From a virus (taxonomy: Duplodnaviria; Caudoviricetes): a DNA stretch of 64,000 nucleotides. The stretch lies in the IMG/VR virus record IMGVR_UViG_3300013426_000001, positions 64,001 to 128,000 of that record; one strand, written 5' to 3'. The first letter of the stretch is position 1, and each line of letters starts with the position of its first letter. The translations under genes and the position numbers were made by a program. The notes below the pieces were generated by a model. It saw nothing but the letters and a program-made list of their open reading frames with translations. It ran no database searches and was not told the origin of the DNA. Positions 14,588-52,900 of this stretch are shown piece after piece.

Positions 14588-15475
14588 ATGGGTGGCGGTA
14601 GTTGGACTACGAGTTCGTATACGTCTTATACGAAAACAAAAGGAATTAAAACTTCATGCTTAGCTGACGGAACCGTTACTCTTGACGCTTCTTACGATGC
14701 TCAAGATCTTTATACAGCGAGAAAACTTGATGAAGCACTTGATCCGAGGGGTGTTGTCAGAGAATGCGTAGATAGCGAGGAACACCCGAATACTATTCCT
14801 GTAATTCTTGCTCTTGACGTTACTGGAAGTATGGGGAGCGCCCTCGAAGAAGTTTCAAAAAAACTTAACGCTATTATGACTGAAACATACAAGAAAGTAA
14901 AGGATGTTGAATTTCTTGTGATGGGTATTGGAGACCTTGCGTATGATAACGCGCCCATTCAGGCTTCTCAGTTTGAATCTGATATCAGAATAGTAGAACA
15001 ACTTGATAAAGTTTATTTTGAACGTGGCGGCGGCGGCAATAAATACGAGTCTTATACGGCTGCTTGGTATTTCGCCGTTAACCAAACGAAACTGGATGCT
15101 TGGAAACGCGGCAAGAAGGGTATTTTAATTACTCTCGGAGATGAACCTCTTAACCCGTATTTGCCTAAAGAAGCTCTCAAAAGAGTGACTGGCAACGAAA
15201 CGTTACAAGGGGACGTTGAAACAAAAGAATTGTATGACGAAGTAATCAAAAAATACGACGTTTATCATTTTGCGATTGATGACAACCACACTTGTTATAG
15301 ATATTATAAAAATGACATCAAAGAAACTTGGGGAAAGTATCTTGACGATAATCACCTCAAAGTCGTTACTTTGAACGAACTTGCGGCGCAAATTGTAAAC
15401 GCTATTACAGAATCTTCCGATTCCGCTATTGGCGGAACAGGAGTTTGCACTTCTACTGATGGGATTTCTTGGTAA
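14588..15475 (+). CDS. von Willebrand factor A (vWA) domain protein
   Basis: MIDAS-type LDVTGSM, GGGGNxxESY, ITLGDE. Confidence 0.85.
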   Translation: MGGGSWTTSSYTSYTKTKGIKTSCLADGTVTLDASYDAQDLYTARKLDEALDPRGVVRECVDSEEHPNTIPVILALDVTGSMGSALEEVSKKLNAIMTETYKKVKDVEFLVMGIGDLAYDNAPIQASQFESDIRIVEQLDKVYFERGGGGNKYESYTAAWYFAVNQTKLDAWKRGKKGILITLGDEPLNPYLPKEALKRVTGNETLQGDVETKELYDEVIKKYDVYHFAIDDNHTCYRYYKNDIKETWGKYLDDNHLKVVTLNELAAQIVNAITESSDSAIGGTGVCTSTDGISW

Positions 15476-15480
15476 AATTT

Positions 15481-16665
15481 ATGAACGTTAAAATTGTAAT
15501 AGGATCTAATTATGGAGACGAAGGGAAAGGGTTAACTTCTCGTTACTTTGCCCAAAAAGCCGAAGGAAGTTGCTTAACCGTTTTACATAATGGGGGAGCA
15601 CAAAGAGGGCATACCGTTGATTATTCGGAAGATAAGAGATTTGTATACCATCATCTCGCTTGTGGAACTGCTGATGGGAGTGATACTTATTTTGAGCAAA
15701 ACTTCATAATTAATCCTATTCTTTTTAACAGAGAGGTTGAAGAGCTTGAAAAAATAAACATTCGCAATTACAGCGTATTTATTTCGCCTCGTTGCAGAGT
15801 GACAACCCCATACGATATGATACTCAATCAAATGGTTGAACGGACACGGGGTGGTCAAAAACACGGTTCTTGCGGAGTTGGTATCTTTGAAACTATAAAG
15901 AGATATGAAAGTTCTGAATATAATAAAACCTTTTCCGAGATGAAGAATATGACCGATTTGGAATTATTTAGATATATCGAAGAAATTTCTAGGGCATATT
16001 TATTCAGTAAAATCGAAGAATACAAAATTCCGAGAAATATTTCTGATGATTATTTGCCGTCAATTACTTCTCGTAAATTTTTGACCGATTATATTATAGA
16101 TTTTCGCTTGATGGCATCTGAAATAACGGAGATAGAACCGTGGGATTTGTACGGGAATTATGATACTCTTATATTTGAAGGGGCGCAGGGGCTCGCTTTG
16201 GATATGGACAACAAAGAAAATTTCCCTTATTTGACGCCAAGCAAAACAGGTTGTTACAACCCGCGAAATTCTCTTGAAGAATATGGGAAAATTCCTTTTA
16301 ATATTGAGTTATGTTACATTACAAGAACCTATCTTACTCGACACGGAGCGGGTCCTTTTCCCTCGGAATGTAAAAAAGAAGAAATTAACGAGCGGATCGA
16401 GGACAAAACGAACGTTCCTAATCCATATCAAGATAGTATAAGATATGGGAAGTTCGATATAACGGCGTTTTTAAATAGAATTAAGTCAGACGAAATTACT
16501 TTCCCCTATCATCACATCTCTACGTGTTTTATTACACATAATAATTATGTGGATGTTGAGGGTTCTGAGGTCGAAGAGCAGCTCGCGCCGAACTTTCATT
16601 TTTTATATTTTTCAGGTGATAAGTTCGGTGAAAAAATAAAAACGAAGAGAGGAGAGAGAAAATGA
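15481..16665 (+). CDS. purA: divergent adenylosuccinate synthetase-family (PurA-like) ligase
   Basis: GSNYGDEGKG, GGAQRGHT, FEGAQG, TRHGAGPF; aspartate-binding loop divergent. Confidence 0.85.
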   Translation: MNVKIVIGSNYGDEGKGLTSRYFAQKAEGSCLTVLHNGGAQRGHTVDYSEDKRFVYHHLACGTADGSDTYFEQNFIINPILFNREVEELEKINIRNYSVFISPRCRVTTPYDMILNQMVERTRGGQKHGSCGVGIFETIKRYESSEYNKTFSEMKNMTDLELFRYIEEISRAYLFSKIEEYKIPRNISDDYLPSITSRKFLTDYIIDFRLMASEITEIEPWDLYGNYDTLIFEGAQGLALDMDNKENFPYLTPSKTGCYNPRNSLEEYGKIPFNIELCYITRTYLTRHGAGPFPSECKKEEINERIEDKTNVPNPYQDSIRYGKFDITAFLNRIKSDEITFPYHHISTCFITHNNYVDVEGSEVEEQLAPNFHFLYFSGDKFGEKIKTKRGERK

Positions 16666-43173: not shown

Positions 43174-44013
43174 ATGTACAGACAAGGACTTACCTCAATC
43201 TCGGCACCCCCTGAGATTTACAACCAAATATGCAAACAAATATCACAAAATGCAACAATCGAAAGTGAAATTACAGCCAAGCAAACCGTAATTTTCTCGA
43301 CAGTTCGTCCAATAGGTTTCCTATACAAGCAAATCGAAGGTAGAACTGCATTGCGTTTAGCCTTAAAGCAAATGATTTACGAGCGTATAGACGAAATAAC
43401 AGGCGAAGTCAAATACTTCCTAACGCTTGAAACAGGCTATCGTTTCGGTAAACCGCCAGTCTATGTTATCACAGACGATGCAGAGATATCCGCCGCCCGA
43501 TACAGTGAATACCTTACGCTAACGCCCTATAGCAGTTTCCAACGCAAAGAGACGACTTTTATCGATAAGGCGACAGGGCGCAAATACGTAATGAGTTACA
43601 CATACGACGGGAGCATAATCACGTTCAATCAATTCTCAAAGAATGTAAACGAGAACTTCGATTTGCCAGAATATATAAAGTCGGTGATTTATGCAGACGG
43701 AGACAAGTGGGAGCAGAACTTCCACGTAGTTCAAGCCAAATGGCGTGAGAAGCAAGAAGCGGACATAGCGGCGAAGAAAGCTGCGATTCAAGCGAAGAAA
43801 GACGCGGAGGCGGAGGAGCGCAAGCGCAAAGCAGCCGAGAAAAAGAAGGCTCAGGCGGCGGCTAAGAAGGCGAAGCCTTTATCAAAAACGACAAGGAAGA
43901 TTACAGAAAGTGATAAACCCAAACCAAAGACTTCCAAGCCTGTTCCAGAGAAAAAGAAGAAAGAGGAGACTGTAACAGACATGTGGAGCAATTGGAGTAA
44001 AGGTAAAAAATAG
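43174..44013 (+). CDS. hypothetical protein with Lys/Ala-rich C-terminus
   Basis: 279-aa ORF, GAGG SD. Confidence 0.7.
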   Translation: MYRQGLTSISAPPEIYNQICKQISQNATIESEITAKQTVIFSTVRPIGFLYKQIEGRTALRLALKQMIYERIDEITGEVKYFLTLETGYRFGKPPVYVITDDAEISAARYSEYLTLTPYSSFQRKETTFIDKATGRKYVMSYTYDGSIITFNQFSKNVNENFDLPEYIKSVIYADGDKWEQNFHVVQAKWREKQEADIAAKKAAIQAKKDAEAEERKRKAAEKKKAQAAAKKAKPLSKTTRKITESDKPKPKTSKPVPEKKKKEETVTDMWSNWSKGKK

Positions 44014-44164
44014 AAATTCCATTCTTGATTAAAGCAAATCTTTGGGGCGGCGGAGCCGAGCCAACGCCCTTGGAGGGTGGGAGGGAACCTTGGGGCGGCA
44101 CAAGGTGCCCTCTGAAAGCGAAGAATAAAAATCGAAATAATTCTAAGAAAGTCAATTAAAATGC

Positions 44165-44193
44165 TTGACAAAAGAAATTAATTATGGTATAAT
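44165..44193 (+). promoter_or_regulatory. sigma-A promoter
   Basis: TTGACA-17-TATAAT. Confidence 0.85.
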
Positions 44194-44288
44194 AAAAGCA
44201 GATAGTGGAGGAGTGGGTGACGGGTTTGTCCCGCCGCCCATAAAAACGTATTTCAAATGCACCACCTTTTTTTGCAAAATTGCAGGAA

Positions 44289-44415
44289 TTATCGGAGATT
44301 TTGAGAAAATCTCGTCACTAAAATTTCTATAAAGGTAAACCTAGACTCTTATTATAGAAAAAATAGTGATGAGTTTTTTCGAAAATCGCAGATTTTATCG
44401 GAGATTTTGAGAAAA
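44289..44415. repeat. 21-bp direct repeats flanking an imperfect inverted repeat
   Basis: TTATCGGAGATTTTGAGAAAA at 44289 and 44395; inverted repeat 44311-44331/44353-44373. Confidence 0.8.
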
Positions 44416-44441
44416 AAGTAGGGTTTTTTAAGGAGAAAACT

Positions 44442-45794
44442 ATGGAAGCAAACGAGCGAAGCGAGTTAATACAGTTTCAGGGAAACAGCGATGAGAAATC
44501 AAAATGTGAAATAAAATTCACATTAGCGGAAGAGAAAAGAAGGAAAGAAGAAGAGAAACAAAAACAAGATGAGATAAGAGATAAACTTATTAAAAGAAGA
44601 TTGCGTAAGACGAAAATCAAAGACAACTTATTTTCGTATGAAGAGCTGTGTGATATATTCTGTTCCGAACCAACAAGAAGCATGGATAGTCGTAAAAGTC
44701 AATTCAAAGACTGGGAAAGATTTTGCGACATTGAAAAGGTAGATCGGAAGTACCATTTGTCGAACATTAAAAAAGACCCGCCGCCAGATTTGCATAAATC
44801 AGAAGTGAAACAGCATATCGCAAACGTCTTGTATTTGTATATGTATTTGCATCCCGATTCCAAAAGAGAAGACGGGAGAATTACTTTATCGAGAAGAGAG
44901 CTTTATTGGATACTCGGATACGTGAATTCTAATTATTTTGGAAACAATGAAGAATTGAAATATATCAAAGACAACTACCCGACAATTTGGACAGAGTATA
45001 ACGCGAAGCTTATCGGATATATGAACGCGCAAATTGCATCGGCTTTTTCGACGTTAAGAAATAAAAGAATAATCGACGAATTAGACGGATACCAGTTTTG
45101 GTTAGAGGGTAAAGAAGGTTGGATAGCAGTAAACGACGATACCGATTCAGATAAGATAGCGCAATTGTTATCTTGCGAGAAGATGGTTTTAGAACAAATG
45201 GCGGCGGAAAATTATAATGAGCAGTTAAAGAAATGGAACGAATGTGAAAGCCCGAATAAGGGGCAATGGAAGCCCGAACGCAGAACGTTCGATATGGGGT
45301 ATATCTTCGCAACAGGGCAGTACGAGATTTTTAAAAGAAGAACTTGCGAATTGTATAAAAAACATTTTAAGCTTGCATTACGAGATTATCGAAGAGTGTA
45401 TAAAGTTTATGTGCTGAGGCATTATCTCGGAGAACAACTCAAAGAGAATTTAGGAGAAGAATTTGTAAAAGACGCGCAGAAATTATTTAAAGAGGAACAG
45501 ATTAAAATAAACCAAAAAACAACAGTCAAAAATTTGGAATCTAAACACAGGTTGGCGGCGGAACGAGAAAATATGAATGAACTTCAACTCAAAATCTTAG
45601 ATAACGAGAGCGGGTTTAGAAAAGTCACGGTTTTTAAAAGAGAGCAGAGAAAATACGACGAGGTTTTGAATAAATGCCCCGAAGCACTTTTACAGATCGG
45701 AACAGAAAAAGAAAAGATAATTACCGATAAATATATCGAGATTTTTAAAGATATCACAGAGAAGCTCATTAAAATATATCCTACGAAGTTATGA
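44442..45794 (+). CDS. large basic hypothetical protein (possible replication or DNA-binding protein)
   Basis: 450 aa; follows origin-like repeat structure. Confidence 0.6.
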   Translation: MEANERSELIQFQGNSDEKSKCEIKFTLAEEKRRKEEEKQKQDEIRDKLIKRRLRKTKIKDNLFSYEELCDIFCSEPTRSMDSRKSQFKDWERFCDIEKVDRKYHLSNIKKDPPPDLHKSEVKQHIANVLYLYMYLHPDSKREDGRITLSRRELYWILGYVNSNYFGNNEELKYIKDNYPTIWTEYNAKLIGYMNAQIASAFSTLRNKRIIDELDGYQFWLEGKEGWIAVNDDTDSDKIAQLLSCEKMVLEQMAAENYNEQLKKWNECESPNKGQWKPERRTFDMGYIFATGQYEIFKRRTCELYKKHFKLALRDYRRVYKVYVLRHYLGEQLKENLGEEFVKDAQKLFKEEQIKINQKTTVKNLESKHRLAAERENMNELQLKILDNESGFRKVTVFKREQRKYDEVLNKCPEALLQIGTEKEKIITDKYIEIFKDITEKLIKIYPTKL

Positions 45795-45803
45795 GGCGGA
45801 GAT

Positions 45804-46397
45804 ATGGAAGAAGAAATAAAATTTTATTTACACATTAAAAAGCAATTTTTCCCCAAAAACAAAAATATTGAAAATGAATATGGGATATTTTCAATTGACA
45901 AAGCTTTTACGTGGGATAATTGGCTGAACAAATTTACAAAAAGCAGTATAAATATCTTAAAGGGATATTTTAAAACAATAAAACAAGATGTGTATTACGT
46001 TGTCACGGGATATTTAAAAGCCGATGACGAACATAAATTAATTTTATTTGCAAATGAATGTTATGAAATTAAAGGGGTTACAACCCCTATAGAATATGTA
46101 ACCAAAGAAAATTTGTGTTTACCTCAATTAGTGGGCAATAAAATGTGGAAAGGCTGTAAAACAAACAGAATAAGAGCCGAAGAAGACGCTAATTCAGGGG
46201 AACCAAGCAGGCAAAAGCAATTGCATAGAGAATACAACGATTTAAAAAGGCAAGCACGAGCCGAAGTCTATGCTGAACTTGGGATAAGAACTTATCTTGA
46301 TATGCGACAAGTTTTGGAAGGTTGGGTTGAGGATAGATATAAACAAAAACTCAAAGAAGCAAGAGAAAAATCTAAAAACATCTCCTCAGACGCTTGA
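45804..46397 (+). CDS. hypothetical protein, N-terminus resembling RecD2 N-terminal domain
   Basis: FFPK..YGIF..LKG....YYVVTG pattern like IYPK..WGLL..FKG....YYFEVE of 34158. Confidence 0.5.
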   Translation: MEEEIKFYLHIKKQFFPKNKNIENEYGIFSIDKAFTWDNWLNKFTKSSINILKGYFKTIKQDVYYVVTGYLKADDEHKLILFANECYEIKGVTTPIEYVTKENLCLPQLVGNKMWKGCKTNRIRAEEDANSGEPSRQKQLHREYNDLKRQARAEVYAELGIRTYLDMRQVLEGWVEDRYKQKLKEAREKSKNISSDA

Positions 46398-46422
46398 CAA
46401 ACACATTCAAAAGTGATATAAT
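46394..46422 (+). promoter_or_regulatory. sigma-A promoter
   Basis: TTGACA-17-TATAAT. Confidence 0.85.
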
Positions 46423-46471
46423 AGAAATATAAAAGTTAGCCGTTTCGAAATCGACACGGTAAGGAGGCCAA

Positions 46472-47020
46472 ATGAAAACATACGACCGCGAATTTGAACT
46501 CGGCTTTTCAGTATCCGCCGCCCGAGCGATAAATACAATACTCCGTGAAAAACTTATCGTAATCCATCAAGACATCATCCATCAGACCTGGCTTGAAGAA
46601 GGCGAGGTCGGCGATTACAAATTCCGCACGCGAATCCGCAGAACCGAAGTCGCTCGACCCGATATGAACGGTTCGTGGGCTGGAAAATGCGAATTCACGA
46701 CTAAGTATTCAAAGAGCGATGAAACGGCAGCGAAGCAAGATAATATGGAGCTTAACGCCGAAATCCTGCCCGAAGAGTACGAGAAATTGAAGAAAATCTA
46801 CAAGGCGGCGGACAAGGAAGAAGTAACGAAAATCAGGACCTATTTCAGAGAGCCGCTTGATGCGTTCACAATCTACACGCTCGATACTTATCCGAACGAA
46901 GAAGATGACAGAGCGCGCATCGAGATTGAGTTTAGTACGCCCGAAGAAATGAAACGCTGGAAGGCGCCTGGCTGGCTTAAAGAACTTATCGGGAAGAAAT
47001 ATAGCGGGCAAAAGGCTTAA
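46472..47020 (+). CDS. CYTH-domain (triphosphate tunnel) protein
   Basis: EFE, RIRR, TTK, KIR, LDTY, EIEF pattern. Confidence 0.7.
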   Translation: MKTYDREFELGFSVSAARAINTILREKLIVIHQDIIHQTWLEEGEVGDYKFRTRIRRTEVARPDMNGSWAGKCEFTTKYSKSDETAAKQDNMELNAEILPEEYEKLKKIYKAADKEEVTKIRTYFREPLDAFTIYTLDTYPNEEDDRARIEIEFSTPEEMKRWKAPGWLKELIGKKYSGQKA

Positions 47021-47040
47021 CCGCCGCCCAAAGGAATTAT

Positions 47041-47313
47041 ATGGCAAAAAAGAAACCAGACCAACTTTGTTGGGATTGCAAACGAGCTGTTAATTGCGAA
47101 CCCTTGACTTGCCCATGGGCAGCGTTGGGAAAACCAGTCGACGGTTGGGAAGCAGAGAAATCAGAATTTAACGATTGGGAAGGCAACTCAAAAATTAAGG
47201 TGCAAACGTACACTATAACTAAATGTCCTCTTTTCATTCAGGATCGAACCGAAACTGCAAGTGTAGCTAAACTGTGGGAGGGCACGGGTAAAATTTGGTG
47301 GATGCTCGATTAA
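47041..47313 (+). CDS. Cys-rich protein, paralog 1
   Basis: LCWDCKR..CPWA..GKPVDGW..CPLFIQD. Confidence 0.7.
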   Translation: MAKKKPDQLCWDCKRAVNCEPLTCPWAALGKPVDGWEAEKSEFNDWEGNSKIKVQTYTITKCPLFIQDRTETASVAKLWEGTGKIWWMLD

Positions 47314-47341
47314 AATAAATCGCACATCAAAAGGAATAATT

Positions 47342-47791
47342 ATGGAAAGTAAACCGATTAAACTAACTAAGAGCAATGGGCGCAAGAAATATAACATCTA
47401 CGCTGACACACTCTGCTGGAACTGTAAACGATGCACCAACCCCGATTCTTATCCTTGCTCGTGGGCGGAAAGTGGCAAACCTATCGAAGGCTGGACCGCC
47501 GCCGAAGGAAGAGAATTCTTTCACTATCTCCCGACGGGCGAAAAGGTAAGTATGGGGTTCTCCTACGTGGTAACAGATTGTCCGCTGTTCATCCAAGACA
47601 AACCGTTTTCCACCTACGCAGAGGGGTGCGCATGGGTCGCCGACGCTCTTAACGTCGATATCAGTACCGTCGTCAATAAGCCAAGGCAATACTTCCGCAA
47701 ATACGAGGAAATTTATGGCAAAAAGCTTCCGTATTGGCTCATGAATCATAGCGAGGAGAAGACATTTTTTCCAAATAATCCGAACAATTAA
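47342..47791 (+). CDS. Cys-rich protein, paralog 2
   Basis: LCWNCKR..CSWA..GKPIEGW..CPLFIQD. Confidence 0.7.
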   Translation: MESKPIKLTKSNGRKKYNIYADTLCWNCKRCTNPDSYPCSWAESGKPIEGWTAAEGREFFHYLPTGEKVSMGFSYVVTDCPLFIQDKPFSTYAEGCAWVADALNVDISTVVNKPRQYFRKYEEIYGKKLPYWLMNHSEEKTFFPNNPNN

Positions 47792-47818
47792 AATTTTTCA
47801 AAAAGTGCATAAAAACAC

Positions 47819-47847
47819 TTGACAAATCTATAAAGAAGTGGTATAAT
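47819..47847 (+). promoter_or_regulatory. sigma-A promoter
   Basis: TTGACA-17-TATAAT. Confidence 0.85.
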
Positions 47848-47895
47848 GTATTCGTGAACTAAAGATGATATTCGATATCGTCAAAGGAGAACTAT

Positions 47896-48132
47896 ATGAA
47901 ATATTACAGTGAAAGACTCAATCGTTTATATGACACCGAAGAGGAACTTTTTAGAGCGGAACGTATCTTAGATGGTGTCTGCGGGCAAAAAGAAAAAACT
48001 GCCCGCCGCCCGAATCACGATGATTTTTCTCGTCCCGCCACTACATCTTCCAAGATTAACAGCAATCATTCAAGCACTGATGATACTGCTTTTAGAGCAG
48101 CGATTATACTTTTGTTGCTGAATTATTTTTAA
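47896..48132 (+). CDS. hypothetical protein
   Basis: AGGAG SD after promoter. Confidence 0.6.
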   Translation: MKYYSERLNRLYDTEEELFRAERILDGVCGQKEKTARRPNHDDFSRPATTSSKINSNHSSTDDTAFRAAIILLLLNYF

Positions 48133-48264
48133 GCTCACACCAGGCGGCGGGAAAAGAAATTAAGTCCATTTGACTATCACCTCACTATGTAAGCAAAAAG
48201 AATTAAGCAAAACAGACAGAGAGAAATAATCATCCATTTTGCAAGAACCTCCTACCGCCGCCTC

Positions 48265-48300
48265 GAAACCCTGATCGAAAGATTGGGGTTTCTTTTTTTT
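48265..48300 (+). terminator. intrinsic terminator
   Basis: GAAACCCTGATC-GAAA-GATTGGGGTTTC plus T tract. Confidence 0.8.
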
Positions 48301-48309
48301 ATCCAAAAT

Positions 48310-48654
48310 CACTTGACAAATATTATTCGAGAAAACGACGTAATTTGTATTGAAGATTTGCAAGTGAAAAATATGGTCAAAAACCATAAACTCGCGCAAG
48401 CAATTAGCGACGTTTCTTGGTCGGAGTTTGTTCGGGAATTAGAATATAAGGCGCGTTGGTATGGAAGATTAGTTATTAAAGTCGATAAGTTTTTCCCGAG
48501 TTCTCAAACTTGCAGTGTCTGCGGCTACAAGAATGAAGGGACAAAAGACTTAAAAGTTAGAGAATGGGATTGCCCTGTTTGTCATACTCATCATGATAGG
48601 GATGTGAATGCGGCGATAAACATTCTCAATGAAGGGCTTAAACAATTAGCCTAA
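48310..48654 (+). pseudogene. tnpB: 5'-truncated tnpB (RuvC-II, zinc finger and RuvC-III only)
   Basis: [29 protein letters not shown]; no N-terminal half. Confidence 0.85.
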
Positions 48655-48662
48655 ACATAAAC

Positions 48663-48774
48663 AACCGTCGGAACGACGGGGATAGCTTGGTAAATATTCT
48701 CGCAGTAGTCGGAAGTTCCCAAGAATCTCGCAGATTTAGTTGTGAGAGGTTCAAACGAGTATATACTCTTAGTA
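48663..48774 (+). ncRNA. TnpB omega-RNA scaffold / right end plus putative guide
   Basis: AACCGTCGGAACGACGGGGATAGCTTG...GAGAGGTTCA. Confidence 0.7.
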
Positions 48775-49184
48775 ATCATAGTTCCGTACTTTTATTATAC
48801 TCTTCTAGTATATATACTCTTATATCGGATATATTCTTTCAGAATATATCCTCTTAAACTATTCACTTCGTTCATAGTTTAGGTTTAATATTATTCTTTT
48901 ATTTATTACTTATACTTAGCTTAATACAAGTGAAGAGTATATATTACCAGTAAACTTAATATGAGTATATTTTAAATAATATATAATAATATATATAAGA
49001 GAAATATATAAAGAGAATATAAATAATACATGAGTAATTGGTAACACTCTTTATATACTCCGTACTAGTGATTAGAGAAAAGGGTAGACCAAACCATACG
49101 CGAAGTTCCGCACAAAAAAAAAGCGCCCGCCGCCAAAACAAAAAAATCCCTAAAATATTTTTTTTGAAAACCGCTGTCAAATAC

Positions 49185-49213
49185 TTGACAATCTTCCCGC
49201 GTTGTGGTATAAT
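49185..49213 (+). promoter_or_regulatory. sigma-A promoter
   Basis: TTGACA-17-TATAAT. Confidence 0.85.
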
Positions 49214-49366
49214 ACTTTTGCAAGCTGAAAGAGCGGTGTTGGATATCGGTTGTGCAAAGTTGTTGCCGCTCCCGCTTGCACCAGGTCTCAATATCCGCCG
49301 CCTTAAAACACAGCATTCCTTCGGCGGCGGGAGACCACCACTAAACAGATACTCTCGGAGGGAATT

Positions 49367-49714
49367 ATGAAACTTGAATCTTGCCGCAATCACACGGCTG
49401 ACGAAATCGAAACTACAATCACCATGCTCGGCAACGGCGCTGACGGCTTCCGCGTTTACACGACCAGCAATTCAATGCTTACGAAAATCGGGAAGTTCCT
49501 CGACACTCCTAATACTCCTTGGTCGATAGAAAAAATCGAACGCTACTCCGACGGAGTTCCCTCGGGTTACTTCTTCAGATGCTCGGTCAAGAACTGCTTA
49601 CAGCTTAAGGCTAAAAAGGCGGCGGGCAGAGAGTTCACGGAAGAGGAAAAAGAAACAGCTCGCGAAAATATGAAAAAAGTCGCAGCTGAAAGATGGGGTA
49701 AAAATCAAATCTAA
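49367..49714 (+). CDS. hypothetical protein, last + strand gene
   Basis: GGAGG SD. Confidence 0.7.
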   Translation: MKLESCRNHTADEIETTITMLGNGADGFRVYTTSNSMLTKIGKFLDTPNTPWSIEKIERYSDGVPSGYFFRCSVKNCLQLKAKKAAGREFTEEEKETARENMKKVAAERWGKNQI

Positions 49715-49865
49715 GGTTTTTTTATAATAAGAATGTTATTATTCGGAAGACAATTCAAGGTCGGGTCGAACACTCGCCCGCCTCGAAGTCTTTTTGGGAA
49801 ATTATAGGCAAATTCAATAGGCTCACACAGAAAGGCTTTTTGCTTTTCATATTTATACTCCTTCA

Positions 49866-49903
49866 GGCGGCGGTCCGTATAATTCGGGCTGCCGTTCTTT
49901 TTT
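49866..49903 (+). terminator. intrinsic terminator
   Basis: GGCGGCGGTCCG...CGGGCTGCCGTT plus T tract. Confidence 0.7.
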
Positions 49904-52900
49904 TATAGACGCAGGGCAGTCGTCTGGAAAATAAGGGGGCGTTCATGGTGATCTGAAAATGGGGCGCTTACATGCAATTTGGGCGTCAGCCAAAAAAGGC
50001 GGCGGCGCTTTGTAAGAAAAAATGCCCGCCCGCTTAAAGAAATATGCCCCGTGGGTTAAAAAATACCGCATAGTAAGGGCTGCTGGTCTTTATTTATACT
50101 GGCAGAGAGCAGTCCAGTTTTCGATTATTCAACGGTTACTTCGAGAAACCCAAGTGCAGCTGCTGGAGCATCCGCGTTTTTAGAGCGGTGCGGATGAATG
50201 GCCGCTTAGTTGTTACGGGTTTGTGTTAGTGGGTTCGGATGTTAACGCTAAAGATTATAAACTGTACTATAAGAAGTATTAAAAGCGCCATCTAATCACC
50301 TCCTTTTCACTTACTTTCAGCCATTAATTATCCTTAATGGCGTAGATGATATTGTAAATGAATACAAATGCCATAAAAAACGCTAATACCATAAACCTAC
50401 CTCCTTTTACTAATTTCGATTGTCGTAAAGCCTATAACCAACATAAATACTATCAGTGCATAAACCATCGCATCACCTCCTTTCTGTAAAGACCACAATG
50501 TTTCCATCTCTTTGCGTAATGAATGTAACTTCGTCGAATTTATGTTCGTTGAAGTAATCAACTTTGCCTTTTGTTGTAAGGTTGAGTTCATCGCCATTGC
50601 CGTTATTCGGCACGATTTTTACCTCGCACCAATCGTCCAATATTTTGTTGAGTTCGCCGAGTGTCATATTAAGCCTCCTTATAAAACGCGATTCTTTTGC
50701 CCAAGTAATTCGTTCCGCAGTTATAAAACGCATACTCGTTGCAGAATTTCTCAAAATCGTAATCGAGCGGGATTTCCGCCATTCCAACCCACATATTGTA
50801 AGGGTGGACATTGCAAGGAAGGCAGTAAACCGCCTTCCTTGCTGTGTGCATTTTTCTTGCCTGAGTTTTTGTTATTTTTTCGTAGTTCATATTTTTACCT
50901 CCTTTGAACTATTAGTCTAATTTGGTTAATCTGTCGAAAATGCAATTCCCGCTCTTCGTGAAATGATAAGTAAGGACTTTCCAATCGTCTTCCCAAGTCC
51001 ACGAAACCTTGTACCCGAGAACTGCGTTTGTTGCCGTTTTGCCGATGAGGATTTCACCGTTTTCTGTCTGTGCCGTGAGTTGATACGAGGGATTACCGTA
51101 ATAGCTGTTGTTTCGTTTTTCTACTTTGAGAATTTTGAAATTTGATTTAAATTCTTTCATAATTTTACTCCTTAAAATTTATTTTGTCTTAATTCGGGAA
51201 AATATTGTTCCATTATCTTGAGGGTGATTTTTCTTTCTGGAAATGTTTCTATGTCAAACCCTATGCACATAGAGCCATCTTTGGTTGATGTTTCTGTAAC
51301 CCCATAGGAGTGAATATAATTCTTATACCCTTTCGGTCTTTCGCCGTAAAAATAAGCGAAGGTGTTCCAATATTTCACTTCAAATTCTTTATCACGAACT
51401 ATAATTTTTGCACATTCTGTGCGTCCATCATTCGTGTAAAATTTTTCAATTTCCATGATGTTTTGCATTTCTTCATCAAAACCTCTTAAAAACTGCTTTG
51501 CTCTAAAATCGTTTTTATCTATCATAATTTTTGCTCCTTTTTTAAACATTAAGTGTTTTTCTGACTTCGATTATAAGTAAGCCAGTGGTTTCGTCATATG
51601 CCACGAAATTGCGCTCTGTGTACCAAGCACCAGGTTCGACCTGATAATGTGGATCCTCGAAACCGAGAAATTCCATAATTACGTCGGTCGGCATTGCCCG
51701 TTTTTTGATTTCGCTCATTTCCTCTTCGGATAAACGATAGACTTCGAGATGAGCGAGCGATTCGCATTCGTGTTCGTAGGGTGTGTAAGTTCCAGATTTA
51801 GTTAAAAATTGCATATTTTACCTCCAAATTAATAATTAGTTGCGATTGCGTAATCGCAGTGATAATCATCATCGTCTTCGATTTTCCAAACATAAACGTC
51901 GGGTTCGTTTTTTGTGATGTCGTCGAAAAATTCTCTGATATAAGCCGAGGCGTTCATTCTCGCCTCTTCGGTGTCGTTACCTACGACGATTCCGCTGATG
52001 TTGTTCGCGTCGTCGTAAAATTTCCAAAGTCCGTTGATGTTAGTTTTATTTTTCATAATTACTCCTTTCCTGCGAATATACCGTCGCAGGTCGGTTTATT
52101 TTTTTGTTTGTTTTGTTGATTAGAATGGTTTAAAATTCTTTTTACCTTCTTCGTATTCACGAGTGAAGCGTTTGTCCCAGTTGATGTATTCATAGAGATG
52201 ATCGATTATGTCTTCTCTGCCAATTCCTTCGCCTTCGTCAAGTCCACTTACGTAATCGCAAAGCATTTCTGCGAAGTTGGTTACTGCCGCGTTTTCGATT
52301 TCTGTAATTTCTTTTTGTTTCATAAAAAATCCTTTTTCGGCTCTTTCCGTATGAGAGTGTCCCGACGTATTTTTGTTTAGATTAATATTCCGAAACGAGA
52401 ATGTAGATATCACCGATTCTGTTTACCCATTCGTTATCGAGCGGGTTGTAATCTTCACTTACGTCATCCCAATTGAGATGATTTACGAGATAATCCAACA
52501 TTTGGTATTTGTTCCCGATGAATTCCGTTTCGCAAACGAGCCATTCCATAAGGCATTCAACCGTATCGAATCTTGAGAGAATTTCGAGATAATCTTCGTA
52601 TTGCTCCTCGAACGTCGGGTCGGTATCATCATGTCTTTCGAGTGGAAGATAATCGAGATAGTTTTCGTCGGAATCGTAGAGCTTTACTCTGTCTTTCTCT
52701 TCGCGGTTTTCGAGTTCTTCAATGTAAAAGTTGCCTAAATAACTGTTATTAATTTTACGCATATTTTATACCTCCTTTATGCGTTAGAATCCAAGTTCTT
52801 GTACTTCGTTAATCCAATTATCGAGTTTATCTTCGTTAAATTCAATAATATTTTGATCTTCGAGAAATTTCAAGATTTTCCTCAATTGTTCATAGCCGTT

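What the first reader, a model, noticed from the sequence alone, without database searches (positions are those of the whole stretch)
43490..50005. Twenty CCGCCGCC octamers confined to 6.5 kb before the strand switch
Seen on either strand at 43490, 43854, 44046, 44231, 44778, 45200, 45554, 46515, 46804, 47021, 47496, 48003, 48143, 48255, 49127, 49295, 49323, 49618, 49866 and 49998. Elsewhere I found only about 3 (15027/15030 in a Gly run, and 31233). They lie in coding and intergenic DNA, in both orientations, in an AT-rich genome, so codon use does not explain them. The zone also holds two origin-like structures and ends where transcription converges. Inference: a dispersed protein-binding domain, such as a centromere-like partition site, an origin or terminus organiser, or a packaging/ejection signal. 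ORFs 43174 or 44442 may encode the binder.
Basis: partly seen in the sequence, partly recalled or inferred. Interest (0 to 1): 0.75.

Follow-up and report, generated by a model that had tools for sequence, protein, structure and literature searches.

The report
Conserved CCGCCGCC site array, phage module
A 6.5-kb block of early genes in an uncultured 138-kb gut phage carries about twenty exact copies of the word CCGCCGCC. Natural selection keeps them, even at silent codon positions, across a whole clade of related phages, so they are very probably docking sites for a DNA-binding protein whose job is still unknown.

Summary
**Observation: confirmed.** All 20 coordinates are exact. The window holds 23 copies (0.69 expected). 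The whole 138.5-kb phage genome holds 26, and 20 of them lie in 6.5 kb.

**Unbiased check.** CCGCCGCC is the most position-clustered 8-mer in four related genomes tested this way. The same syntenic cluster (14-22 copies in about 6-7 kb) occurs in six viral records and in most of 20 metagenome loci.

**Evidence of selection.**
- Sites in aligned DNA are kept 79% of the time, against 33% for background 8-mers.
- Third-codon positions inside the sites are kept 87% of the time, against 63%.
- There are at least 63 independent sequence contexts.
- Both orientations share the flanks T-R-W-CCGCCGCC-Y.
- One-mismatch variants are hardly enriched.

**Layout.** Orientation and spacing look random, at about one site per 340 bp. 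Stretches without sites coincide with mobile or alternative inserts.

**Readings rejected.** Recombination junctions, codon use, microsatellite, polar Chi or Ter traps, and a ParA- or TubZ-type centromere are not supported.

**Best reading (0.35 for the specific output; about 0.7 that these are duplex-DNA protein sites).** This is a stoperator-like array of asymmetric binding sites. The best candidate reader is the module's own Zn-ribbon(+HTH) paralogues (47041, 47342), not ORF 44442, which is absent from some cluster-bearing phages. An origin-organising role or a host-factor role remains open.

The scan had noted this stretch only in a second reading of the same DNA, not on other DNA.

The parts
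43490..50005 (.). Array of 20 exact CCGCCGCC sites. Plus orientation: 43490, 44231, 44778, 46515, 47021, 47496, 48003, 48255, 49127, 49295. Minus orientation: 43854, 44046, 45200, 45554, 46804, 48143, 49323, 49618, 49866, 49998. Extended consensus T-R-W-CCGCCGCC-Y.
   Evidence: counts, enrichment. (flanks). (conservation).
43174..44013 (+). 279-aa protein with a Lys/Ala/Glu-rich basic C-terminal tail. The array starts inside this gene, at about codon 106, in the six viral records. Homologues seen in G001, G002, G004 and G006.
   Evidence: No Pfam, PHROG or NCBIfam family.
44165..44193 (+). Perfect TTGACA-17-TGnTATAAT promoter. Its leader carries octamer 44231 at about +30, inside a predicted 5' hairpin.
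44442..45794 (+). 450-aa protein of unknown function holding 3 conserved octamers. In G004 and G006 the slot is taken by unrelated 466- and 455-aa genes that have none.
45804..46397 (+). 197-aa protein of unknown function, no octamer.
46394..46422 (+). Perfect consensus promoter. First octamer downstream at +85 (46515).
46472..47020 (+). 182-aa module protein of unknown function, with homologues in G001, G002 and G004. Holds octamers 46515 and 46804.
47041..47313 (+). 90-aa Cys-rich Zn-ribbon protein (CWxCKR...CPW...GW...CPLF). Octamer 47021 lies 20 nt before its ATG. Candidate reader of the octamer.
47342..47791 (+). 149-aa paralogue with the same Zn-ribbon plus a confident C-terminal three-helix domain. 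Relatives of the family carry assorted HTH domains. Candidate reader.
   Evidence: Co-occurrence.
47819..47847 (+). Perfect consensus promoter before the 78-aa ORF 47896-48132.
48265..48292 (+). Intrinsic terminator hairpin directly after octamer 48255.
   Evidence: z -2.2.
48283..48654 (+). C-terminal fragment of a TnpB (Cas12f-like TNB domain). This inserted DNA carries no octamers.
48755..49070 (.). AT-rich non-coding stretch with about 8 copies of AAGAGTATATA-type iterons in both orientations. Origin-like, with no octamer inside. 93.6% identical to G006, while the flanks are about 75%.
49185..49213 (+). Perfect consensus promoter of the 115-aa gene.
49295..49330 (+). Leader hairpin CCGCCGCC-N20-GGCGGCGG with a conserved loop. 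Conserved in G004, G006 (two copies), G007 and L051.
49367..49714 (+). 115-aa module protein of unknown function, with homologues in G001, G002 and G004. Holds octamer 49618.
49866..49896 (+). Terminator ending the plus-strand block. Octamer 49866 forms its 5' arm.
   Evidence: z -3.9.

Best explanation
The octamers are the invariant core of an asymmetric site of about 12 bp (T-R-W-CCGCCGCC-Y) that a sequence-specific protein reads on duplex DNA. About one site per 340 bp, in random orientation, turns a 6-7 kb accessory early-gene module into a protein-occupied domain.

**Proposed reader (inferred).** The module's own Zn-ribbon proteins are the most likely reader: the 90-aa 47041 and the 149-aa 47342, the latter with an added helix-turn-helix-like domain. 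Each would bind one site as a monomer.

**Proposed output (inferred).** Multiple occupancy would throttle host RNA polymerase coming from the module's four consensus promoters. This would be a stoperator-like silencing or timing switch, either early shut-off or silencing in a carrier or lysogenic state.

**What is shown.** The array exists, is confined to one module, is conserved and under purifying selection at the DNA level, uses a very stringent core with shared flanks, and travels with the module.

**What is inferred.** That a protein reads it, which protein that is, and what the output is.
For: **Confinement and excess.**

**Same syntenic array in relatives.** G001 14 of 16, G002 15 of 18, G004 17 of 19, G006 21 of 24, G007 19 of 23. 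Also L051, L052 and most of 18 metagenome loci.

**Selection.**
- Sites are kept in 208 of 263 aligned cases, against 33% for background 8-mers.
- Flanks diverge around invariant cores.
- Third-codon positions in sites are conserved 87% against 63%, p 2.5e-6.
- Octamers also occur in DNA that is not homologous between relatives.

**Duplex-type recognition.** T at -3 and Y at +8 occur in both orientation classes.

**Stringent core.** In G000, 20 exact sites against 3 one-mismatch. Across loci, 319 against 92.

**Reader candidate.**
- The Zn-ribbon genes lie inside the array, with a site 20 nt before 47041.
- Homologues co-occur with arrays down to 33% identity.
- They are absent from G003 and G005, which lack arrays.
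- The C-terminal three-helix domain is modelled with pLDDT 87-93.
- A minority of 40 sampled family members (up to 3 per Pfam family) carry an HTH-type domain: Sigma70_r4_2, HTH_23, GcrA, GerE and others.

**Precedent.** A monomeric two-domain phage repressor reads more than 20 asymmetric 13-mers and stops elongation (PMC9283540).
Against: **No binding data.** Co-occurrence cannot separate the Zn-ribbon genes from the other module genes (279-aa, 182-aa, 115-aa), which travel with them.

**Motif invariance.** The octamer does not change while the 149-aa protein drifts to 33-45% identity. This fits a host factor, or the better conserved Zn-ribbon domain, better than a drifting HTH.

**Differences from stoperators.** Orientation is random and half the sites are in coding DNA. 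The apparent rule that promoter-proximal sites point one way (10:0) shrinks to 5-7 against 2 independent leader types in the wider sample.

**Density-type layout.** Random spacing (CV 0.95) suggests a density signal, not promoter-specific operators.

**Gaps in the pattern.**
- A provirus with a 27%-identical homologue has no octamer.
- Two loci cut at the gene have 0-1 sites.
- The fold search found nothing significant.
Confidence: 0.35

Rival explanations
1. Origin or maintenance organiser. The sites recruit a replication or segregation protein around the AT-rich iteron stretch at 48755-49070. This would resemble the octamer iterons of phage P4 ori/crr, or parS clusters around an origin. The variable 450-aa 'slot' gene would be an exchangeable initiator or helicase.
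For: - The AT-rich iteron block lies inside the array and is unusually conserved.
- The slot gene is replaced by unrelated proteins of similar size, one weakly helicase-like.
- The nearest named kin by polymerase are Clostridium phage c-st (55%) and phiCD211 (48%). phiCD211 is annotated with a partition protein, integrases and repressors. That c-st is kept as a plasmid prophage is my own knowledge.
- The genome encodes a tyrosine recombinase.
- The layout is a density-type, orientation-free array.
Against: - No ParA-like or tubulin-like motor in the genome, and no homologue of the phiCD211 partition protein.
- The sites spread over 6.5 kb, whereas known centromeres and origins span a few hundred bp.
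- phiCD211 has neither the module nor the octamer.
- Origin function is not shown.
Confidence: 0.2
2. Host-factor sites. The array binds a conserved host protein, either to recruit it or to titrate it away from the host chromosome. The phage supplies only the DNA.
For: - The core is strictly invariant across phages whose polymerase is only 52% identical and whose module proteins are 33-75% identical.
- The core is very stringent and one-mismatch forms are little enriched.
Against: - The host is unknown. The only genome hit is a TnpB on a short MAG contig labelled Christensenella sp..
- No known Firmicutes regulator with this site comes to mind (own knowledge, not a test).
- The array always travels with the same phage module.
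Confidence: 0.15
3. RNA-level element. CCGCCGCC in mRNA leaders pairs with GGCGGCGG further along the same transcripts. The resulting hairpins and long-range helices would control stability, termination or translation.
For: - A conserved leader hairpin CCGCCGCC-N20-GGCGGCGG, with a second copy in G006 that has a different loop.
- Octamer 44231 sits in a predicted 5' hairpin whose other arm differs between genomes.
- Octamer 49866 forms a terminator arm.
- Promoter-proximal sites are mostly in plus orientation.
Against: - Several sites are unstructured (49127, 48143, 48255) or lie outside the inferred transcripts, for example 49127 upstream of its promoter.
- Plus and minus sites are unbalanced within transcription units.
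- Plus and minus sites share the same flank preferences read on their own strand.
- The promoter-orientation signal weakens with more data.
Confidence: 0.1
4. End-related signal: Chi-like attenuation of a host exonuclease, or a stop or pause signal for DNA ejection or packaging next to the leftward block of small early genes.
For: - The word is an exact, G-rich 8-mer, as known Chi sites are (own knowledge).
- The array abuts the convergent boundary with a block of about 13 kb of small leftward genes.
- The assembly 'terminal repeat' is only 77 bp, an assembler overlap, so the true ends are unknown.
Against: - No polarity. Orientation is mixed throughout, and adjacent orientation pairs look random.
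- Sites share flank preferences, which are not expected for Chi.
- Nothing places a genome end here.
Confidence: 0.08
5. No function: a by-product of composition, codon or amino-acid runs, a microsatellite, foreign origin of the segment, or recombination scars.
For: The word is (CCG)2CC. The copies outside the array lie in a run of Gly codons (15026-15036) or tightly grouped inside a very long ORF.
Against: - GC content is normal.
- Half the sites are non-coding.
- Synonymous positions are conserved.
- The repeat is not extended: G is rare at -1 and +8.
- Homology breakpoints are not enriched at sites, 7.5% against 7.1% within 10 bp.
- There are at least 63 independent contexts.
Confidence: 0.02

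Closest known systems
Operator and stoperator sites of Cluster A mycobacteriophages (L5 gp71, TipsytheTRex repressor; PMC9283540)
   Same: - Many (more than 20) copies of one short asymmetric site dispersed through transcribed phage DNA.
- High sequence fidelity.
- Read there by a monomer with two DNA-binding domains. The candidate here also has two domains (Zn-ribbon plus three-helix).
   Different: - Stoperators are genome-wide, mostly in short intergenic gaps, and strictly co-oriented with transcription. Here the sites are confined to one 6.5-kb module, half are inside genes, and orientation is random.
- No sequence relation to gp71 was seen.
- Binding is untested.
Phage P4 ori/crr octamer iterons (TGTTCACC, bound by the alpha protein).
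   Same: An exact octamer in multiple copies and both orientations, spread over kilobases around a replication region. An AT-rich iteron block lies within the array here.
   Different: - P4 has two compact clusters about 4.5 kb apart, not a continuous scatter through genes.
- No alpha-type primase-helicase is encoded in the module.
- Origin function is not shown here.
Domain-marking sites of bacterial chromosomes and plasmids (parS/ParB, KorB OB sites, Noc, matS). Own knowledge.
   Same: A density-type, orientation-free signal that labels one domain of a replicon.
   Different: - Those sites are palindromes of 13-16 bp read by dimers. This one is asymmetric.
- No ParA, ParB or TubZ was detected.
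Chi sites (RecBCD/AddAB). Own knowledge.
   Same: A short, exact, G-rich word that is not palindromic.
   Different: - Chi acts in one orientation and is polar along replicons. Here orientation is mixed.
- Chi is a host-genome-wide signal, not a 6.5-kb island.

Membership tests
Stoperator-type repressor site array (Cluster A mycobacteriophages) | Many copies of one asymmetric site of about 13 bp | tested here: met
   20 copies here and 329 across 26 loci. Asymmetric consensus T-R-W-CCGCCGCC-Y.
Stoperator-type repressor site array (Cluster A mycobacteriophages) | Orientation tied to the direction of transcription | tested here: not met
   10 plus and 10 minus sites within co-directional operons. 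Adjacent orientation pairs look random. The promoter-proximal bias is only suggestive.
Stoperator-type repressor site array (Cluster A mycobacteriophages) | Sites spread over the whole genome, mainly in short intergenic gaps | tested here: not met
   20 of 26 lie in 4.7% of the genome. By my reading of the ORF map, 10 of 20 lie inside genes.
Stoperator-type repressor site array (Cluster A mycobacteriophages) | A cognate monomeric repressor binds the sites and blocks elongation | not testable with these tools
   There is only a candidate, the Zn-ribbon(+HTH) paralogues.
Partition centromere (ParABS, ParMRC, TubZRC) | An NTPase motor gene (ParA, ParM or TubZ) in the replicon | tested here: not met
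   - PF00091 (tubulin): no match.
- PF13614: only a P-loop inside the helicase gene.
- No homologue of the phiCD211 partition protein.
- ParM was not searched.
Partition centromere (ParABS, ParMRC, TubZRC) | A compact palindromic site or tandem iteron array | tested here: not met
   The site is asymmetric. Copies are scattered with a median gap of 288 bp.
Chi or polar fork-trap (Ter) sites | Orientation polarity relative to an end, origin or terminus | tested here: not met
   Mixed orientation strings in all six genomes.
Chi or polar fork-trap (Ter) sites | Over-representation and strand skew in the host chromosome | not testable with these tools
   The host is unknown.
Iteron-type replication origin (P4 ori/crr-like) | Repeated initiator sites next to an AT-rich unwinding region | tested here: inconclusive
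   An AT-rich stretch with its own AAGAGTATATA iterons lies inside the array. The octamers flank it but extend 5 kb away.
Iteron-type replication origin (P4 ori/crr-like) | An initiator protein that binds the repeats | not testable with these tools
   No recognisable initiator. The slot genes are unannotated.
Recombination-junction motifs (PeSL-like boundary sequences) | Motifs sit at the mosaic breakpoints between relatives | tested here: not met
   14 of 187 breakpoints lie within 10 bp of a site, against 7.1% expected at random.

The most novel reading that the evidence does not exclude
A previously undescribed way for a phage to label one accessory gene module. An exact 8-bp word at about 3 copies per kb would be read by a small Zn-ribbon protein family with about 2,000 uncharacterised cluster representatives. 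This would build a chromatin-like, insulated nucleoprotein domain that controls transcription, replication start or DNA handling of that module as a unit. The code would be fixed, unchanged across phages that have otherwise diverged to about 50% protein identity.
Probability: 0.25. Interest if true: 0.8.

Novelty: new variant of a known kind. Interest (0 to 1): 0.62.

Why it matters
Dispersed, selected DNA words are rare and informative in phage genomes. Stoperators, Chi and uptake sequences each revealed a mechanism.

Here the signal is unusually clean: exact, confined to one module, conserved at silent sites, and present in every sampled member of a clade of large uncultured gut phages related to the Clostridium phages c-st and phiCD211.

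It comes with a short list of candidate readers from a large uncharacterised Zn-ribbon family. That makes the question 'what organises or silences accessory early modules in large Firmicutes phages' directly testable with a gel shift and a DAP-seq experiment. The motif can also serve as a marker for this module in metagenomes.

Tried and rejected
1. **Recombination-junction idea.** Two breakpoints seemed to fall on octamers, but over 187 breakpoints there is no enrichment.
2. **Promoter-proximal orientation rule.** It looked strong (25 of 27; 10:0). It fell to 5-7 against 2 independent leader types with the metagenome loci, so I keep it only as a hint.
3. **A 15 x 27-bp tandem array next to the distant Zn-ribbon homologue in provirus G008.** It looked like iterons but is a coding repeat, (GSASISKVC)n, inside a 302-aa ORF.
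4. **G003 as a negative control.** It lacks both octamers and module, but it is rearranged and poorly alignable here, so it shows only that module and array come and go together.
5. **phiCD211.** No octamer, no module, and no analogous clustered word.
6. **Annotation of module proteins.** Pfam, PHROGs and NCBIfam scans gave nothing for the module proteins, apart from the TnpB fragment and a few weak, sub-threshold hits.
7. **Structure of the 149-aa protein.** The PDB profile search and Foldseek on the AlphaFold model gave nothing significant. The ESM Atlas gave only viral hypothetical proteins.
8. **Rfam.** No family in the zone.
9. **Literature search for the word in phages.** Nothing relevant.
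10. **Host identification through TnpB.** Only one short MAG contig.
11. **Degenerate sites.** One-mismatch variants are not enriched in G000, 3 against 3.7 expected.
12. **Spacing.** Neither regular nor phased.

Full report
**1. Observation**

An exact search finds 23 CCGCCGCC in the window, against 0.69 expected (maximum 4 in 100 shuffles). Twenty are at precisely the listed positions, ten on each strand. The window is bases 64001-128000 of a 138,523-bp viral record. The whole genome has 26 copies.

The record's 'terminal repeat' is a 77-bp assembler overlap, so the physical ends are unknown.

The word is the most enriched 8-mer of the zone (20 of 26, p 8.5e-22). A scan of every 8-mer for positional clustering ranks it first in this genome. 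GC content in the zone is ordinary.

By my reading of the ORF map, ten sites lie in genes, in several reading frames but mostly as Ala-Ala. The other ten lie in non-coding DNA.

**2. What the genome is**

The window carries the following:
- a PolIII-alpha-type polymerase, helicases and an exonuclease V-like protein;
- a PurZ-like synthetase and several TnpB genes;
- 26 perfect TTGACA-17-TGnTATAAT promoters genome-wide, nearly all on the plus strand.

The nearest named phages by polymerase are Clostridium phage c-st (55%) and the C. difficile phage phiCD211 (48%). The genome encodes a tyrosine recombinase. It has no ParA-like or tubulin-like protein.

**3. The array is a clade property**

The same syntenic array occurs in five further viral records:

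| Record | Copies in the array / in the record |
|---|---|
| G001 | 14 / 16 |
| G002 (truncated record) | 15 / 18 |
| G004 (polymerase 52% identical) | 17 / 19 |
| G006 | 21 / 24 |
| G007 | 19 / 23 |

Sources.

- In all six records the array starts at the same site inside the 279-aa gene and ends near the point where plus- and minus-strand genes converge.
- CCGCCGCC is also the top clustered 8-mer in G001, G002 and G004.
- Two Logan contigs and most of 18 metagenome loci show it too, with up to 22 sites in 6.7 kb.
- G003 (polymerase 67% identical) lacks the array together with most of the module genes I searched for (the 279-, 450-, 149- and 115-aa proteins). G005 lacks the array and most of those genes but has one weak 115-aa match. 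phiCD211 lacks both.

**4. Selection**

- In a three-way alignment, the cores stay invariant while the flanks diverge. Some sites are lineage-specific, so there is turnover.
- Over all ordered genome pairs, 208 of 263 aligned octamers are conserved (79%), against 33% for other 8-mers in the same alignments.
- In G000 genes, third-codon positions inside octamers are conserved 87% against 63% elsewhere (p 2.5e-6). First and second positions differ little, 90% against 87%.
- Octamers also sit in segments that are not homologous between relatives.
- In 26 loci there are 329 sites in at least 63 independent contexts.

**5. Anatomy of the site and the array**

- Flanks, read on the CCGCCGCC strand, prefer T at -3 (37 of 63), R at -2 (clear for sites in the plus orientation, not for those in the minus orientation), T or A at -1, and C or T at +8 (49 of 63). 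The -3, -1 and +8 preferences hold for sites in either orientation relative to transcription.
- The core is all-or-none. G000 has 20 exact sites but only 3 one-mismatch variants in the zone (3.7 expected from the genome average). Across loci the counts are 319 exact against 92.
- G is rare on either side of the core, so the (CCG)n repeat is not extended.
- Gaps between sites are roughly exponential (median 288 bp, CV 0.95), and adjacent orientations look random.
- Stretches without sites coincide with a TnpB fragment and an AT-rich iteron block in G000, an HNH gene in G004, and the alternative 455-466-aa 'slot' genes of G004 and G006.

**6. Relation to transcription and RNA**

- Four perfect promoters lie inside the array and one lies upstream of it.
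- The first site downstream of each promoter is almost always in the plus orientation, at +28 to +150. Among 'unique' contexts the count within 100 nt was 10:0.
- With the metagenome loci this reduces to 5-7 independent leader types in plus against 2 in minus. I treat it as a hint only.
- One pair of sites forms a conserved leader hairpin before the 115-aa gene. One site forms a terminator arm. One sits in a predicted 5' hairpin. Others are unstructured.
- No Rfam family matches.

**7. Candidate readers**

- ORF 44442 is absent from G004, which keeps the array, and unrelated genes fill its slot in G004 and G006.
- ORF 43174 has homologues in G001, G002, G004 and G006 and carries a basic Lys/Ala-rich tail.
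- The two Cys-rich paralogues, 47041 (90 aa) and 47342 (149 aa), share a four-Cys Zn-ribbon signature.
- The longer one has a confidently modelled three-helix C-terminal domain.
- The family has 2,172 cluster representatives. Of 40 sampled members, a few (up to 3 per Pfam family) carry an HTH-type domain.
- Their homologues sit in or next to the array in every array-bearing genome sampled, down to 33% identity.
- The short paralogue is better conserved (69% against 45% between G000 and G004). That fits an unchanging DNA word better than the drifting C-terminal domain does.
- This is co-occurrence, not proof. A 27%-identical homologue in a provirus has no octamers.

**8. Interpretation**

The data show a selected, stringent signal read at the DNA level, dispersed through one accessory module.

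I rate 'protein-binding sites on duplex DNA' at about 0.7. The specific model is a Zn-ribbon reader producing stoperator-like, domain-wide control of host RNA polymerase traffic. I rate it at 0.35.

| Rival reading | Confidence |
|---|---|
| Origin or maintenance organiser | 0.2 |
| Host-factor sites | 0.15 |
| RNA pairing | 0.1 |
| Chi-like or ejection signal | 0.08 |
| No function | 0.02 |

**9. Comparison with known systems**

The closest known system is the operator and stoperator array of Cluster A mycobacteriophages (PMC9283540). This array fails two of its defining features, transcription-linked orientation and genome-wide intergenic placement. I therefore file it as a new variant of that kind, not as a member.

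P4 ori/crr, parS-type domain markers and Chi each share one or two traits and fail others (see the membership table).

**10. Earlier findings**

The scan's earlier notes held only a second reading of this same stretch (withheld). A lead to P4 crr came from an unrelated genome.

Noticed in passing
window 15469-16665 (+): A 398-aa protein matches PHROG 1211, a PurZ-type adenylosuccinate synthetase (E 1.5e-57). The phage may replace adenine with 2-aminoadenine. A G/C-only binding site would be blind to that change.
   Followed up: no
window 48755-49070: AT-rich non-coding block with about 8 AAGAGTATATA-type iterons in both orientations, and a palindromic GAGTATATACTC. It is 93.6% identical to G006, while neighbouring DNA is about 75%. 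GAGTATATA occurs 6 times in the genome, 5 of them here.
   Followed up: partly
window 48283-48780: C-terminal third of a TnpB (TNB domain, E 3e-27). It is followed by a structured tail that weakly resembles Rfam Ref70 (E 0.084), probably a decayed omega-RNA. G004 has an HNH endonuclease gene at the equivalent place.
   Followed up: partly
whole genome (G000), e.g. window 41776, 44165, 46394, 47819, 49185: 26 perfect TTGACA-16/18-TATAAT promoters, almost all with an extended -10 TG and almost all on the plus strand between genome 60 and 113 kb. This is a remarkably uniform early promoter set.
   Followed up: partly
window 49220-49366; L036 (G006), two copies: Conserved structured 5' leader of the 115-aa gene: an outer helix GCAAGC...GCUUGC, then the octamer hairpin with a conserved loop (AACNCANCAUCYC). 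It is duplicated before a different gene in G006. Possibly a cis-regulatory RNA.
   Followed up: partly
window 44268-44309 and 44374-44415: Two 42-nt direct repeats (86% identical) in the 240-nt leader of the 450-aa gene. A G-rich tract at 44040-44100 precedes the promoter.
   Followed up: no
window 44442-45794 vs L008:7210-8610 (G004) vs L036:7171-8538 (G006): Three unrelated proteins of 450-466 aa occupy the same slot behind the same promoter and leader in different relatives. One is weakly SF2-helicase-like. Only the G000 type carries octamers.
   Followed up: partly
G000 genome 29352-30389 (L044:9352-10389): A tyrosine recombinase (Phage_integrase, E 6.7e-16) in a phage whose named kin, by polymerase, are c-st and phiCD211. 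phiCD211 is annotated with a partition protein, integrases and repressors. The lifestyle may be temperate or plasmid-like.
   Followed up: partly
G003 (L010) 14659-16375: Nine copies of AAGCGAAA, all in one orientation, within 1.7 kb of a relative that lacks the CCGCCGCC array (10 copies in the 146-kb record).
   Followed up: no
L040 4014-4421 (provirus G008): 15 tandem copies of a 27-bp unit that encode a (GSASISKVC)n repeat protein, just upstream of the distant Zn-ribbon homologue. This is a coding repeat, not iterons.
   Followed up: yes
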